This document shows positions 40,988 through 43,396 of a DNA stretch of 64,000 nt, piece by piece. The notes under the pieces are model-generated. The model had not been told where the DNA came from and did not search any database. It was given only the letters and a program-made list of their open reading frames with translations. The position numbers and the translations under genes were made by a program. The stretch lies in assembly GCF_003334305.1 (NCBI RefSeq), contig NZ_QOWS01000014.1. One strand, written 5' to 3'. Position 1 is the first letter of the stretch, and each line of letters opens with the position of its first letter. This DNA is from Escherichia coli (GTDB taxonomy: Bacteria; Pseudomonadota; Gammaproteobacteria; Enterobacterales; Enterobacteriaceae).

Positions 40988-41037
40988 TGTGCCTGATGTA
41001 TCCTGCATGAGCAAAACGTACTTTCTCATTGAGCTTT

Positions 41038-41064
41038 GGGGCATGGTTATCATGCCCCTTTTTC
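41038..41064 (+). terminator. lnt intrinsic terminator
   Basis: GGGGCATG-GTTAT-CATGCCCC followed by TTTTTC; 50 bp after the lnt stop and ending 1 nt before the stop codon of the convergent ORF at 41065. Confidence 0.7.
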
Positions 41065-42942
41065 TTACGGTTCAGGGATACAAGCCACATTGCCATATTG
41101 GGGATGACGAATAATTGCCTGCGGATCAAGCGAGCGCGTCCTGTCCATTTGGATCAACCCGTTCTTCGCCATGACAAATATTTTTCTACCATCCGCTGAA
41201 AAACGAAGGTGATTAACGTAGCTGGCAGGATAAACGCCAATAATCTGCCCGGCATTAATATTGAGCAGGATGACATAACCTTGCAGGCCATATGACACCA
41301 ACGCTAAATATTGACCGTCCGGGCTAATACCCTCAACGGAATAAACGCTCCTGCTACACCATTGCGTCATAATGCTGGCTTGTTGATCCCCTACGCTTAT
41401 ACGTGAAATCCCCTGACTATCGGCAAAAATAACCTCGCCGTTTTCAGGTCGAAAACGCATCGCCGATATCGTTCCACGCGCATCACCTGCGGGAAAGTCT
41501 TCTTTCTGATGCGTGATGGTATTGATCCGCACGATGTTACCTCTGCCTGCTCCCGGAACCAGTAATGTTCTTTCATCCGGGGAAAGTGCCATAACCCAGG
41601 CGCCTGGTTTACCGCTCGTCCCCGTCCCGTCGTATTTCTCCAGCGGGATATCCGCCACATGCTGATAAGTCACCAGATCAATCGCTGACACACTATTACT
41701 GGTGCGATTCATCACCCAGGCTTTTGTGCCATCACGCGAGAGGATAAAACTGTCAGGATGTGCACCGGTGGTAATCGACTGAATAATCTCCCCTGTCGCC
41801 ACGTTAATGACCGATAACGCATTCGCTTCAAATGACGTCGCATAAATCAACTTTTCATCCGGGCTTAATGCCAGCGATCTGACGCCCTGATCTTTACAGC
41901 CACCACAATGTTTGACTGACTTTTCTTTCGCTATGGGCGCTGTAAAGGTATGCAGGATTTTCTTTTGTCCGAGGTCGAAAACAACAATGCTGTTGGTGTT
42001 TTCAATTGCGGCATACAACGTATTACCATCCCGACTGATCGCCATATCATGGATATCGGCAATCTCAGCGAGTAAATCACCACTGGCCTGTTCACGACTT
42101 ACCGGAGCGGATAATGTTTCCCTGAGGGCGTTGCGTTCCTCCGCTAACTGTTGTTTTTTTTGTCGTCGCTCTTGTTCAATCTCCTGCGGATAAAACGCTT
42201 CACGCAGGCTTTGCCTGACCTGTAAAACTGACTCATCCATCTGCTGCTGCGCAAGCCAGATAGCCCCGGTCAGAAGAAGACTGCCCGCAACAATAATCCC
42301 GCCTTCCGTAACGAGTCGGTTTTGCCCAGATAAACGCGCGCTCAGCCAACCCAACGCGCCACCCGCAATCAGGCCGCCAATGTGGCAAGCGTTATCTATT
42401 CCTGTTTGCCGGGCACCGTACAACAGTGTCAGCGCCACCATACCCAACAGAGTAAATACTCGCCGCTGGTTTTTATGGTATGTGCCCGTACCTGAAGCAA
42501 ACTGTGTTGCTATCGCTGCACCAGCTATTCCCAGAATCGCCCCGGATGCCCCAACGCTGATGACTATCTGCTCACTTTCGCGTAACGCATAACAGGCGCT
42601 GATGAGCCCACCAAAGACGCCGGAGAATAACCAGGTAATCAGGAGTCGCCATTTCCCCAGAATCTGTTCCGCCACGCCTCCCACGACCAGGAATGCAAAC
42701 ATATTCATCAGCAGATGAGAAACACTACTGTGCAGAAAGATACTGCTCAATAAGCGCCAGGGTTCACCCGACAAAGTAAGAGGCGCAACGTTTGCACCGA
42801 GATGGATAAGTGCGGATTGATCGACCTCTTCATAACTCATCCATTGTGCGAGATAACAAAATATCCCAATACAGAGTGCAAAAAGGATAAGGGTTATTGC
42901 GGGTAATTGAACATTTAACGGCTTAACCGAAGATGCAGACAT
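41065..42942 (-). CDS. Rhomboid-family intramembrane serine protease (predicted 7 TM) fused to a C-terminal seven-bladed beta-propeller, 625 aa; not a K-12 gene I recognise
   Basis: Uninterrupted 625-codon ORF with AAGGAAG RBS. Rhomboid motifs in order: TM1 LPAITLILFALCIGIFCYL; L1 WRLLSSIFLH; TM2 H-x3-N (HLLMN); TM4 GASGAILG (catalytic Ser); TM6 CHIGGLIAGGALG (catalytic His); extra TM7 GGIIVAGSLLLTGAIWLA. Then a charged linker and seven repeats of type [LIF]S[RP]DG..(ISRDGNTL, LSPDEKLI, LSRDGTKA, LSPDERTL, FRPENGEV, ISPDGQYL, FSADGRKI). Confidence 0.75.
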   Translation of the reverse strand: MSASSVKPLNVQLPAITLILFALCIGIFCYLAQWMSYEEVDQSALIHLGANVAPLTLSGEPWRLLSSIFLHSSVSHLLMNMFAFLVVGGVAEQILGKWRLLITWLFSGVFGGLISACYALRESEQIVISVGASGAILGIAGAAIATQFASGTGTYHKNQRRVFTLLGMVALTLLYGARQTGIDNACHIGGLIAGGALGWLSARLSGQNRLVTEGGIIVAGSLLLTGAIWLAQQQMDESVLQVRQSLREAFYPQEIEQERRQKKQQLAEERNALRETLSAPVSREQASGDLLAEIADIHDMAISRDGNTLYAAIENTNSIVVFDLGQKKILHTFTAPIAKEKSVKHCGGCKDQGVRSLALSPDEKLIYATSFEANALSVINVATGEIIQSITTGAHPDSFILSRDGTKAWVMNRTSNSVSAIDLVTYQHVADIPLEKYDGTGTSGKPGAWVMALSPDERTLLVPGAGRGNIVRINTITHQKEDFPAGDARGTISAMRFRPENGEVIFADSQGISRISVGDQQASIMTQWCSRSVYSVEGISPDGQYLALVSYGLQGYVILLNINAGQIIGVYPASYVNHLRFSADGRKIFVMAKNGLIQMDRTRSLDPQAIIRHPQYGNVACIPEP

Positions 42943-43396
42943 AAGGTGTTTCTTCCTTGAAAAGACAGGTAAAAAGCATTTTTCCCGTGTGCAGTTATCA
43001 TCCCGGCAAACGTCCCATGCCGAAAAGATAACTCTGTCCGAAATATGACTTTTTCAGCCTGAAATTACAATCGTAATTAATTCACCCATAAGTATTTTTT
43101 GGCATGTAAGTTGCTTTATTTACTGTGTAAGCAATGAAATCAGCCGCGACGCAACCGGGTTGCACCACCACAAATCAGCGGTAGCACCAAAAGAGTGCAT
43201 TTTAAGAATTTTGCTTCGGAATGGTGCGGTGCACCTCGCAAAAACAAACAATAAAACATCAATATCTTTACATTTAGCCAAACTAAATGTTACCTAACAA
43301 GCACAACACTGCACAATAAAGTTGCAGACGATAACAACACAAACACTCACAACGGGTATCCATGCGTTCTTAACGCAGAAGATAAAGGAGTTGGAT

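What the first reader, a model, noticed from the sequence alone, without database searches (positions are those of the whole stretch)
40988..43396. lnt-gltI junction is expanded to 2.4 kb here and looks like an insertion or variable site
Seen: the rhomboid-propeller ORF stop codon (41065..41067) sits 1 nt after the T-tract of the lnt terminator hairpin, so two convergent genes share one palindromic structure. The ORF has no T-run terminator of its own on its strand, so its transcripts would read antisense into lnt unless the shared hairpin stops them. A 455-bp AT-rich leader separates its start from gltI; a plausible sigma70-like element (TTGTAA-N17-CATATT on the minus strand, about 43041..43075) could drive it. 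The 11-mer GTTATCATCCC at 42994..43004 resembles GTTATCATGCCCC inside the lnt terminator (41046..41058); this is weak and could be chance. Established recollection: K-12 has an IS5 copy at the lnt-gltI junction, which would make this a recurrent site of genome plasticity.
Basis: partly seen in the sequence, partly recalled or inferred. Interest (0 to 1): 0.5.

Follow-up and report, generated by a model that had tools for sequence, protein, structure and literature searches.

The report
rhom7 gene in lnt–gltI gap
The extra 2 kb between lnt and gltI is the already-characterised rhomboid protease gene rhom7, one of two old alternative versions of this chromosomal site (about 60% of E. coli carry it; K-12 does not), and it is not a recent or mobile insertion.

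Summary
The sequence observations hold. The lnt–gltI interval is 2,409 bp here and 396 bp in K-12-type strains. The 625-aa minus-strand ORF stops 1 nt after the T-tract of a GC hairpin downstream of lnt. K-12 carries IS5 nearby.

The ORF is Rhom7, 619/625 identical to a Shigella sonnei protein at the same locus. S133 and H187, shown catalytic by Liu et al. 2020, are present. It has 7 TM helices and a predicted 7-bladed YVTN β-propeller that is probably periplasmic.

The site is a two-allele presence/absence polymorphism: 3,232 of 5,426 complete E. coli genomes have rhom7 and 2,186 have one shared "empty" allele.

It is not a mobile or recent insertion. There are no target duplication, terminal repeats or mobility genes. 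GC is native and synonymous divergence equals that of the flanking genes. The gene sits at the same place in E. whittamii, another Escherichia species and several Klebsiella.

The empty allele is also old. Its lnt tail (QRRK*) and σ54-promoter flank match Salmonella and Citrobacter, and K. aerogenes has the same dimorphism with the same breakpoints.

Gain-versus-loss polarity is unresolved. The gene is known, and the finding is ordinary accessory-genome variation with an old history.

The parts
40973..40987 (+). Last four codons and stop of lnt (ARKR*). This allele-specific tail goes with rhom7 presence; empty alleles end QRRK*.
   Evidence: all occupied loci in Escherichia and Klebsiella have a non-Q tail. 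All empty loci (E. coli, Salmonella, Citrobacter, K. aerogenes and others) have QRR[K/R]*.
40982..43096 (.). DNA specific to the rhom7-bearing allele (about 2,115 bp). The empty allele has about 100 bp of unrelated sequence with a REP-like element in its place.
   Evidence: The net length difference is 2,013 bp (2,409 vs 396 bp). The same breakpoints occur in K. aerogenes.
40991..41016 (+). Remnant of a REP/BIME element in the lnt-rhom7 spacer. The spacer is 77 bp here, 126 bp in phylogroup B2 and 158 bp in E. whittamii.
   Evidence: Alignment and folds.
41038..41063 (+). GC-rich hairpin (41038-41058) plus T5. It is the intrinsic-terminator-like site for lnt and abuts the rhom7 stop codon. On the minus strand it is followed by AAAGC, with no U-tract.
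   Evidence: The stem is kept with G-U changes in five Escherichia alleles. A single GC hairpin fills the 31-41 bp spacer in Klebsiella.
41065..42942 (-). rhom7 CDS (625 aa plus stop): a rhomboid family intramembrane serine protease.
   Evidence: Pfam Rhomboid E=1.3e-27. 619/625 identical to a S. sonnei protein at the same locus. RefSeq annotates it in 3,232 genomes. Characterised as Rhom7/SSON_0610 in PMC7232013.
42238..42942 (-). Residues 1-235: 6-TM rhomboid core plus a 7th TM helix. Catalytic S133 is at 42544-42546 and H187 at 42382-42384. The TM2 H71/H76/N80 motif is also here.
   Evidence: S133A and H187A abolish activity in the S. sonnei orthologue.
42079..42237 (-). Residues 236-288: charged helical linker after TM7.
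   Evidence: AF2 model helices 237-250 and 253-276.
41068..42078 (-). Residues 289-625: predicted 7-bladed YVTN-type β-propeller, inferred to be periplasmic. Family-conserved cysteines are C346, C349, C529 and C621.
   Evidence: TIGR02276 YVTN repeat E=5e-16. Pfam propeller hits. AF2 strands 289-600. Best PDB match is 1l0q, a YVTN propeller, E=7e-18. Conserved cysteines.
43042..43070 (-). Candidate weak σ70 promoter for rhom7 (TTGTAA-N17-CATATT, 8/12 match).
   Evidence: Sequence. Below the scan threshold. Hexamers are conserved in five Escherichia alleles. Consistent with the low native expression reported in PMC7232013. Function is inferred.
43100..43114 (+). σ54-type promoter element TGGCAT-N5-TTGC directed at gltIJKL, immediately right of the allele breakpoint.
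   Evidence: Conserved across genera. The homologous Salmonella site TGGCACGTCTATTGCTTT is bound by σ54 (PMC3844500).
43152..43396 (+). gltI upstream region shared by both alleles at 95% identity or more. It includes NtrC-like TGCACC/GGTGCA repeats (43160-43239) and the site where K-12 carries IS5 (equivalent to 43294-43297).

Best explanation
The 2.4-kb lnt-gltI interval is the rhom7-bearing allele of an old two-allele chromosomal locus.

rhom7 encodes an active rhomboid intramembrane serine protease. It has a 6-TM catalytic core with the S133/H187 dyad, a 7th TM helix, a helical linker and a 7-bladed YVTN β-propeller that the 7th helix should place in the periplasm.

The gene is convergent with lnt. 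The two genes abut a single GC hairpin that carries a T-tract for lnt and probably also impedes rhom7 read-through. The gene is divergent from gltI and shares a 454-bp AT-rich control region with it. That region holds a weak σ70-like rhom7 promoter and the σ54 promoter of gltIJKL.

Variation at the site arises by allelic replacement through homologous recombination in the conserved flanks, not by transposition or site-specific integration. The alternative "empty" allele differs from lnt codon 509 to just upstream of the σ54 -24 element. It is the allele found in K-12, where IS5 has additionally landed 100 bp upstream of gltI.

Shown here: gene identity, domain architecture, allele frequencies, breakpoints, synteny across genera, and divergence equal to the flanks. 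Taken from the literature: proteolytic activity. Inferred: periplasmic location of the propeller and its role in substrate selection or regulation, promoter and terminator function, and recombination as the exchange mechanism.
For: Gene identity and architecture:
- Pfam Rhomboid domain plus β-propeller hits and YVTN repeat.
- S133 in GASG and H187 in CHIGG.
- 99% identity to S. sonnei protein in the same gltI-rhom7-lnt context.
- Rhom7 activity and its dependence on S133/H187 are reported in PMC7232013.
- AF2 model with pLDDT 80 shows 7 TM helices, a linker and a propeller. The top PDB hit is a YVTN propeller.

Allele frequencies: 3,232 occupied and 2,186 empty of 5,426 genomes.

Not recent or mobile:
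- rhom7 dS is 0.17/0.25/0.26, against 0.12-0.40 for flanking genes, versus B2, E. whittamii and MOD1.
- dN/dS is 0.16-0.20.
- GC is native.
- No boundary repeats.

Old occupancy of the site:
- Same slot in E. whittamii, Escherichia sp. MOD1, K. aerogenes, the K. oxytoca complex and Klebsiella sp..
- The Rhom7 identity matrix ranks the lineages in the same order as the Lnt matrix.

The empty allele is also old:
- Its lnt tail QRRK* and 38-nt promoter flank are 87-92% identical to Salmonella and Citrobacter, but 63% identical to the conspecific occupied allele.
- K. aerogenes is dimorphic with the same breakpoints.

Exchange by recombination:
- Empty alleles are polyphyletic on trees built from the E. 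coli flanks.
- The K. aerogenes occupied locus has a 91.6% downstream flank against a 97% upstream flank.
Against: - Nothing here measures transcription, termination or protein topology.
- The rhom7 promoter match is weak (8/12).
- The hairpin lacks a U-tract on the rhom7 strand in E. coli.
- The published work found the 7th TM helix and the C-terminal domain dispensable for cleaving a model substrate. It also found no phenotype for the deletion, so the role of the propeller is conjecture.
- Which allele came first is not resolved.
- E. albertii, E. fergusonii, E. marmotae and E. ruysiae could not be examined.
- A 24-nt similarity between the E. coli empty allele and the rhom7 leader (19/24) is unexplained.
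Confidence: 0.85

Rival explanations
1. Recent horizontal insertion. rhom7 is a small genomic islet that entered this strain or lineage at a recombination or insertion hotspot.
For: - The gene is absent from K-12 and about 40% of E. coli.
- IS5 is in the same intergenic region in K-12.
- A short direct repeat, GTTATCAT(G/C)CC, brackets the gene.
Against: - dS equals that of the flanking core genes and GC is native.
- There is no mobility gene and no terminal repeat. The 11-mer is one of nine similar chance repeats and does not coincide with the real breakpoints at 40981/40982 and about 43096/43097.
- The gene is present at the same site in sister Escherichia species and in Klebsiella.
- The K-12 IS5 is about 200 bp from the right breakpoint and is confined to 353 genomes, those listed all being K-12 or laboratory strains.
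Confidence: 0.03
2. Recent deletion. The K-12-type empty site arose within E. coli by deleting rhom7 from the occupied allele, for example between short repeats.
For: - rhom7 is present in sister species and Klebsiella.
- There is a 24-nt match (19/24; 0 of 500 shuffles reach it) between the empty allele and the rhom7 leader at 42995-43018.
- A REP-like element sits at the empty junction.
Against: - The empty allele's lnt tail (CAG CGA CGT AAA TAA, QRRK*) cannot be produced by deleting from the occupied allele. It is the tail found in Salmonella, Citrobacter, Enterobacter, Raoultella and most Klebsiella.
- Its promoter flank is 92% identical to Citrobacter but 63% identical to the E. coli occupied allele.
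- Empty alleles differ among themselves by up to about 8% over 176 bp.
- A deletion between the two GTTATCAT repeats would leave the occupied-type lnt tail, which is not seen.
Confidence: 0.07
3. Polarity reading A, ancient gain. The empty configuration is ancestral for Enterobacteriaceae. The rhom7 cassette replaced about 100 bp once, before or around the Escherichia-Klebsiella split. It has since been inherited vertically and passed between lineages by flank recombination.
For: - The empty, Q-tail configuration is the majority state across genera and is well conserved.
- The occupied allele's tail and promoter flank are divergent from all others.
- Distant Rhom7-like proteins (25-32% identity) occur outside the lnt-gltI context in other proteobacteria.
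- The K. aerogenes occupied allele looks introgressed.
Against: - The Rhom7 identity ranking matches that of Lnt between Escherichia and Klebsiella. This needs very long persistence of both alleles or repeated replacement.
- No trace of an insertion mechanism remains.
Confidence: 0.5
4. Polarity reading B, ancient loss. rhom7 was at this site in the common ancestor of Escherichia and Klebsiella. A single old deletion created the empty allele, which then spread and became the majority state.
For: - Same slot, orientation and hairpin arrangement in Escherichia and Klebsiella.
- The Rhom7 identity ranking matches that of Lnt.
- Breakpoints are identical in both genera.
Against: - It requires the deletion allele to have crossed many genus boundaries or to have been maintained as a polymorphism for a very long time.
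- The empty allele is more conserved than the occupied one.
Confidence: 0.35

Closest known systems
Rhom7 (SSON_0610, UniProt Q3Z4D6) of Shigella sonnei; Liu et al., EMBO J 2020 (PMC7232013)
   Same: It is effectively the same protein: 619/625 identical to a S. sonnei variant at the same gltI-rhom7-lnt locus. The catalytic residues carry the same numbers, S133 and H187, and there are seven TM helices plus a C-terminal domain. The paper reports an active rhomboid that cleaves the TatA TMD reporter and, when over-expressed, orphan HybA and FdnH.
   Different: The paper's main text does not contain the words "propeller" or "lnt". In the passages I read, it does not discuss the presence/absence polymorphism in E. 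coli. The copy in this window differs by 6 residues from the S. sonnei variant compared. I did not retrieve Q3Z4D6 itself.
GluP/YqgP-type 6+1 TM rhomboids with an extracytoplasmic C-terminal TPR domain (Bacillus subtilis YqgP)
   Same: The rhomboid cores are the nearest non-orthologous sequence relatives, at 35-44% identity over the core. Both have a 7th TM helix followed by a C-terminal repeat domain placed outside the cytoplasm.
   Different: The C-terminal domain here is a YVTN β-propeller, not TPR. There is no large N-terminal cytosolic domain, because the first TM helix starts at residue 14.
E. coli GlpG (the canonical 6-TM rhomboid)
   Same: Same fold and same catalytic dyad. It overlaps in substrate (HybA) according to PMC7232013.
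   Different: The match to the GlpG models is far below their cut-offs: 43 bits against 250, and 39 against 335. GlpG has an N-terminal cytoplasmic domain, no 7th TM helix and no propeller. glpG sits at a different locus.
Hairpins shared by convergent bacterial genes (bidirectional intrinsic terminators)
   Same: One GC-rich hairpin lies between the stops of the convergent lnt and rhom7 genes. In Klebsiella it fills the whole 31-41 bp spacer, with A/T runs on both sides.
   Different: In this E. coli allele the T-tract is only on the lnt strand, so termination of rhom7 transcripts at this hairpin is unproven.

Membership tests
Rhomboid intramembrane serine proteases (MEROPS S54 / Pfam PF01694) | Significant match to the Rhomboid domain profile | tested here: met
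   PF01694 i-Evalue 1.3e-27, residues 59-201.
Rhomboid intramembrane serine proteases (MEROPS S54 / Pfam PF01694) | Catalytic Ser in a GxSG motif (TM4) and catalytic His followed by GG (TM6) | tested here: met
   S133 lies in VGASGA and H187 in ACHIGG. Both are invariant in a 20-sequence family alignment.
Rhomboid intramembrane serine proteases (MEROPS S54 / Pfam PF01694) | TM2 His/His/Asn motif (HxxxxHxxxN) | tested here: met
   FLHSSVSHLLMN. H76 and N80 are invariant and H71 is nearly invariant.
Rhomboid intramembrane serine proteases (MEROPS S54 / Pfam PF01694) | Six-helix membrane core | tested here: met
   The AF2 model has helices 15-34, 74-95, 97-122, 132-149, 155-178 and 184-204, plus a 7th at 209-233. 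This is a prediction, not an experiment.
Rhomboid intramembrane serine proteases (MEROPS S54 / Pfam PF01694) | Intramembrane proteolytic activity | not testable with these tools
   Reported for the S. sonnei orthologue and abolished by S133A or H187A (PMC7232013).
Rhom7 orthologue group | Near-identity to S. sonnei Rhom7 and the same chromosomal locus | tested here: met
   99% identity to a S. sonnei protein encoded between gltI and lnt. The numbering of the catalytic residues matches the paper. Q3Z4D6 itself was not retrieved.
YVTN-type 7-bladed β-propeller | YVTN repeat profile matches and a propeller fold | tested here: met
   TIGR02276 scores 58.4 bits against a cut-off of 27.85. The AF2 model shows four-stranded blades over residues 289-600. 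The best PDB hit is 1l0q, a YVTN propeller. The blade number is read from the model.
Mobile element or integrative islet (IS, transposon, integrase-borne island) | Target-site duplication or att-like direct repeats at the boundaries | tested here: not met
   The breakpoints at 40981/40982 and about 43096/43097 carry no direct repeat. The only bracketing repeat (11-mer, 10/11) is at chance level and is not at the breakpoints.
Mobile element or integrative islet (IS, transposon, integrase-borne island) | Terminal inverted repeats | tested here: not met
   None of the 16 inverted-repeat pairs lies at the boundaries.
Mobile element or integrative islet (IS, transposon, integrase-borne island) | Transposase, integrase or recombinase gene | tested here: not met
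   rhom7 is the only long ORF in the segment, and its domains are protease plus propeller.
Mobile element or integrative islet (IS, transposon, integrase-borne island) | Foreign composition or divergence out of step with the flanks | tested here: not met
   GC is 0.47-0.55. dS matches that of the flanking genes.
Bidirectional intrinsic terminator | Stable GC-rich hairpin between convergent stop codons | tested here: met
   The scan calls a 9-bp stem with a 3-nt loop at 41038-41058. Analogous hairpins occur in four other genera or lineages.
Bidirectional intrinsic terminator | U-tract after the hairpin on both strands | tested here: not met
   T5 follows the hairpin on the lnt strand only. On the rhom7 strand the hairpin is followed by AAAGCTC. 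In K. aerogenes both sides have T runs.
Bidirectional intrinsic terminator | Mapped RNA 3' ends on both strands | not testable with these tools
   This needs term-seq or 3' RACE in a rhom7-positive strain.

The most novel reading that the evidence does not exclude
The rhom7-present and rhom7-absent configurations are two ancient allelic lineages with identical breakpoints. They have coexisted in Escherichia and Klebsiella since before these genera split, or have been repeatedly exchanged between them, because selection favours each under different conditions. The breakpoint abuts the σ54 promoter of gltIJKL, so the allele carried would also change what lies upstream of that promoter and could alter nitrogen-regulated glutamate/aspartate uptake. 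The periplasmic propeller would act as a sensor or substrate gate for the protease.
Probability: 0.2. Interest if true: 0.5.

Novelty: already known. Interest (0 to 1): 0.22.

Why it matters
Most E. coli biology is inferred from K-12, which lacks this second rhomboid protease. About 60% of sequenced E. coli, and Shigella sonnei, carry it. Three results may be useful to people working on Rhom7, whose physiological role is still unclear:
- rhom7 is an old, vertically inherited, purifying-selected gene (dN/dS about 0.17), not a recent islet.
- Its C-terminal domain is a YVTN β-propeller, probably periplasmic.
- The locus is a clean two-allele system that also segregates in Klebsiella aerogenes.

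The dimorphism also provides natural isogenic-like contrasts. The last four lnt codons are a simple sequence marker for the allele. Beyond that, the finding is ordinary accessory-genome variation.

Tried and rejected
1. An apparent hyper-divergence of GltI (88-95% within E. coli, 51% to Klebsiella) was my own frame error. The gltI ATG is at 43397, not 43398. With the right frame GltI is 98-100% identical within Escherichia and about 87% to Klebsiella.
2. My first working idea was that the empty site is a recent E. coli deletion of rhom7. I dropped it once Salmonella- and Citrobacter-type loci were recovered, because the empty allele's lnt tail and promoter flank are of outgroup type.
3. Deletion or insertion through the GTTATCAT(G/C)CC repeat is rejected. 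The product predicted by recombination between the copies is not the observed empty allele, and nine similar repeats occur in the region.
4. The second resemblance of the empty junction, to the rhom7 3' end (22/30), is not significant: 9 of 200 shuffles reach it.
5. An Rfam scan of 40800-43500 at E<=1 found nothing.
7. The single genome-contig scan found rhom7 only in E. whittamii and Escherichia sp. MOD1, plus two contaminated MAG contigs. It gave no information on E. albertii, E. fergusonii, E. marmotae or E. ruysiae. CorC-based look-ups returned only E. coli.
8. One cluster look-up failed for lack of a slot and was repeated successfully. P0039 was not on record.
9. Distant homologues (P0041, P0049; 24-32% identity) are not in an lnt-gltI context and told me nothing about the locus.
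Full report
**Observation**

The window matches an E. coli chromosome at 100% identity (strain A7). lnt occupies 39449-40987 (+). A 625-aa ORF occupies 41065-42942 (-). gltI starts at 43397 (+). The lnt-gltI interval is therefore 2,409 bp, against 396 bp in strains without the ORF.

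The hairpin GGGGCATG-GTTAT-CATGCCCC lies at 41038-41058 and is followed by T5 at 41059-41063. The consensus scan calls this a + strand terminator-like site. It finds no minus-strand site downstream of the ORF stop.

The interval between the ORF start and gltI is 454 bp with GC 0.40-0.41. The proposed TTGTAA-N17-CATATT element is present on the minus strand but matches only 8 of 12 consensus positions, below the scan threshold. Its hexamers are conserved in five Escherichia alleles.

The GTTATCAT(G/C)CC pair exists. It is one of nine comparable short direct repeats in 2.35 kb and does not lie at the real allele breakpoints.

K-12 does carry IS5 between lnt and gltI. It is flanked by a CTAA duplication at the position equivalent to window 43294-43297, 100 bp upstream of gltI.

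**What the ORF is**

Pfam finds a Rhomboid domain at residues 59-201 (E=1.3e-27) and β-propeller families over residues 297-611. NCBIfam finds YVTN β-propeller repeats above their cut-off. It finds GlpG and rhombosortase models only far below theirs.

RefSeq annotates the gene as "rhomboid family intramembrane serine protease". The protein is 619/625 identical to a Shigella sonnei protein encoded between gltI and lnt.

Liu et al. (EMBO J 2020, PMC7232013) named the S. sonnei gene SSON_0610 rhom7. They predicted seven TMDs and showed that it cleaves a TatA-TMD reporter, and that S133A or H187A abolishes cleavage. [quoted passage not shown] HybA and FdnH were cleaved only when Rhom7 was over-expressed, and the deletion had no phenotype in the conditions they tested.

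In the window protein, residue 133 is the Ser of GASG and residue 187 is the His of CHIGG. Both are invariant in a 20-sequence family alignment, as are H76 and N80 of the TM2 motif.

An AlphaFold2 model (mean pLDDT 80) has three parts:
- seven long helices between residues 15 and 233;
- a helical linker at 237-276;
- four-stranded blades from 289 to 600.

Its best PDB match is the YVTN propeller of 1l0q, followed by 7-bladed WD40 and hydrazine-synthase propellers. With seven TM helices and a short N-terminus, the propeller should be periplasmic. This is an inference, and the paper suggests the same. No Rfam family matches the region.

**How variable the site is**

Of 5,426 complete E. coli genomes, 3,232 contain at least 80% of window 40900-43500. 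A further 2,186 contain one and the same alternative sequence. Together these account for all but 8 genomes.

The K-12-type IS5 junction is present in 353 genomes, and the records listed are K-12 or other laboratory strains.

Within the occupied class there are smaller variants:
- The lnt-rhom7 spacer is 77 bp here and in Escherichia sp. MOD1, 126 bp in B2 strains and 158 bp in E. whittamii, because of REP/BIME elements.
- The NC101 copy is annotated as frameshifted.
- A 554-aa variant exists.

**Breakpoints**

On the left, the two alleles are collinear up to lnt codon 508. The last four codons differ: ARKR* here and QRRK* in empty alleles.

On the right, sequence specific to the occupied allele ends at about 43096, just upstream of a TGGCAT-N5-TTGC element at 43100-43114. 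The next 55 nt or so are alignable but only about 64% identical between the two alleles. From 43152 on, identity is 95% or more.

The empty allele has about 100 bp in place of about 2,115 bp, including a hairpin and a REP-like element. No direct or inverted repeats mark the boundaries.

**Not a recent or mobile insertion**

- rhom7 is the only long ORF in the segment.
- GC is 0.47-0.55, like the surroundings.
- Synonymous divergence of rhom7 against a B2 strain, E. whittamii and Escherichia sp. MOD1 is 0.17, 0.25 and 0.26. This is within the range of lnt, gltI, corC and gltJ in the same comparisons (0.11-0.40).
- dN/dS is 0.16-0.20, so selection is purifying but looser than on the neighbours, which give 0.00-0.08.
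- The gene lies in the same slot and orientation in E. whittamii and Escherichia sp. MOD1. The same is true in K. aerogenes (48% aa identity), Klebsiella sp. RHBSTW-00484 (52%), the K. oxytoca complex including K. huaxiensis (51%) and an unidentified enterobacterium (56%).
- Pairwise Rhom7 identities rank the lineages in the same order as Lnt identities, at roughly three to four times the amino-acid rate.

**The empty allele is not a recent deletion either**

A metagenome scan for the published Salmonella gltI σ54 site recovered eleven contigs with lnt and a gltI start. One has an Lnt identical to Salmonella enterica. Either L074 or L082 has an Lnt identical to a Citrobacter portucalensis protein. 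In the ten contigs where both gene ends are held, the interval is 354-413 bp with no rhom7.

Every outgroup empty locus I translated (six of them), like the E. coli empty alleles, ends lnt with QRR[K/R]*. Lnt proteins from K. pneumoniae, Raoultella, Kluyvera, S. bongori, other Citrobacter and most Enterobacter also have Q-type tails. One Enterobacter sequence ends PRRK, and I did not check occupancy for these proteins. Every occupied locus has a non-Q tail, including a K. aerogenes Lnt ending ARKR as in E. coli.

The 38 nt to the right of the breakpoint in the E. coli empty allele are 92% identical to Citrobacter and 87% to Salmonella. They are only 63% identical to the E. coli occupied allele, which in turn is 89% identical to E. 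whittamii.

K. aerogenes is itself dimorphic. A strain with the common Q-tail Lnt has a 428-bp empty interval, and its breakpoints against the occupied K. aerogenes locus are again lnt codon 508 and the σ54 element. Each allele class therefore appears to have a single origin, and both occur in at least two genera.

**How the alleles move**

On trees built from the flanking genes, E. coli empty alleles fall in at least two separate clades. One empty locus is sister to an occupied one. In K. aerogenes the occupied locus is 97.0% identical to the empty one upstream but only 91.6% downstream, as expected if the allele arrived by recombination from a related species. Replacement by homologous recombination in the conserved flanks is therefore the likely mechanism of exchange. 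This is an inference.

Which allele is ancestral cannot be decided with the data I could reach. The breadth and conservation of the empty configuration favour an ancient gain. The identical slot and the host-like ranking of Rhom7 identities favour ancient presence. I give these readings about 0.5 and 0.35.

**Regulatory context**

TGGCAT-N5-TTGC at 43100-43114 is a σ54-type element pointing at gltI and is conserved in all genera examined. Its Salmonella counterpart is a ChIP-supported σ54 site, and gltIJKL is listed there as a predicted NtrC-dependent operon. NtrC ChIP-seq in E. coli gives a peak assigned to gltIJKL.

The allele breakpoint thus abuts the gltI promoter, and the K-12 IS5 lies between that promoter and gltI. 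Whether either affects gltI expression is untested.

The hairpin shared by lnt and rhom7 keeps its stem through G-U changes in Escherichia. In Klebsiella it is replaced by different single GC hairpins that fill the 31-41 bp spacer. This suggests selection for a structure at this position. In this E. coli allele only the lnt side has a T-tract.

**Verdict**

The reading as an insertion hotspot is not supported. The ORF is the known protease gene rhom7. The junction is one of two old alleles, and K-12 carries the other allele plus a lineage-specific IS5.

Two things seem new, at least relative to the passages of the Rhom7 paper I read and to one literature search that found nothing relevant. [quoted passage not shown] This is ordinary accessory-genome variation with an unusually clean and old history, so interest is low to moderate.

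Noticed in passing
window 43100-43114 (+) and 43160-43239: A σ54-type promoter (TGGCAT-N5-TTGC) for gltIJKL is conserved across genera. NtrC-like TGCACC/GGTGCA repeats lie downstream of it rather than upstream, which is an unusual arrangement for an enhancer-dependent promoter.
   Followed up: partly
window 40973-40984; loci L001, L003, L009, L010, L012, L041, L068, L074, L075, L082, L085: The last four lnt codons track rhom7 presence at every locus checked, across genera. Occupied loci end [A/S/T/V][R/H][K/R][R/N/Q]* and empty loci end QRR[K/R]*. The tail is a simple marker of the allele class.
   Followed up: yes
L009 vs L085 (Klebsiella aerogenes): K. aerogenes shows the same dimorphism with the same breakpoints. 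The rhom7-bearing locus is 97.0% identical upstream but only 91.6% downstream (gltIJKL side), which suggests introgression of the allele together with its downstream flank.
   Followed up: partly
L001 1596-1619 vs window 42995-43018: A 24-nt stretch of the E. coli empty allele matches the rhom7 leader 19/24 (0 of 500 shuffles reach this score). It lies inside allele-specific DNA of both alleles and is absent from the Klebsiella, Salmonella and Citrobacter loci I aligned. It may be chance or local exchange.
   Followed up: partly
window 40988-41037; L015/L016 (B2 strains), L006 (E. whittamii): REP/BIME elements come and go between the lnt stop and the shared hairpin. The spacer is 77 bp here and in MOD1, 126 bp in B2 and 158 bp in E. 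whittamii.
   Followed up: partly
L015 1715-3590 (E. coli NC101); L019 6001-7665: rhom7 is annotated as frameshifted in NC101, and a 554-aa variant occurs in another Escherichia contig. Several clusters of truncated Rhom7 proteins (358-514 aa) also appear in the protein search. Occasional decay of the gene seems likely.
   Followed up: no
L002 1886-3080 (K-12); window equivalent 43294-43297: The K-12 IS5 has a CTAA target duplication and sits between the σ54 promoter and gltI. The exact junction is found in 353 complete genomes, and the records listed are K-12 or other laboratory strains.
   Followed up: yes
Rhom7 residues C346, C349, C529, C621 (window about 41905-41907, 41896-41898, 41356-41358, 41080-41082, minus strand): Four cysteines in the propeller are invariant or nearly invariant across the family, including a CGGC motif. 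This fits disulfides in a periplasmic domain.
   Followed up: no
hit H40, NZ_CP110860.1 (113-kb record labelled plasmid): A record typed as a plasmid carries a 98.6% match to the start of gltI. It may be a misassembled or mislabelled chromosomal fragment, or a chromosomal segment on a plasmid.
   Followed up: no
window about 47600 onward vs L022 (strain AMSCJX03): Homology to the empty-allele strain is lost downstream of rihA. That strain has an IS1 element and a truncated ybeQ there, which is a second and unrelated structural difference near the locus.
   Followed up: no
L004 and L005 (MAGs labelled Proteobacteria bacterium and Collinsella sp.): Two short contigs, 2.4-2.7 kb, in metagenome-assembled genomes of unrelated taxa carry rhom7 at 98-99% identity to E. 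coli. This is almost certainly E. coli contamination of the bins.
   Followed up: no
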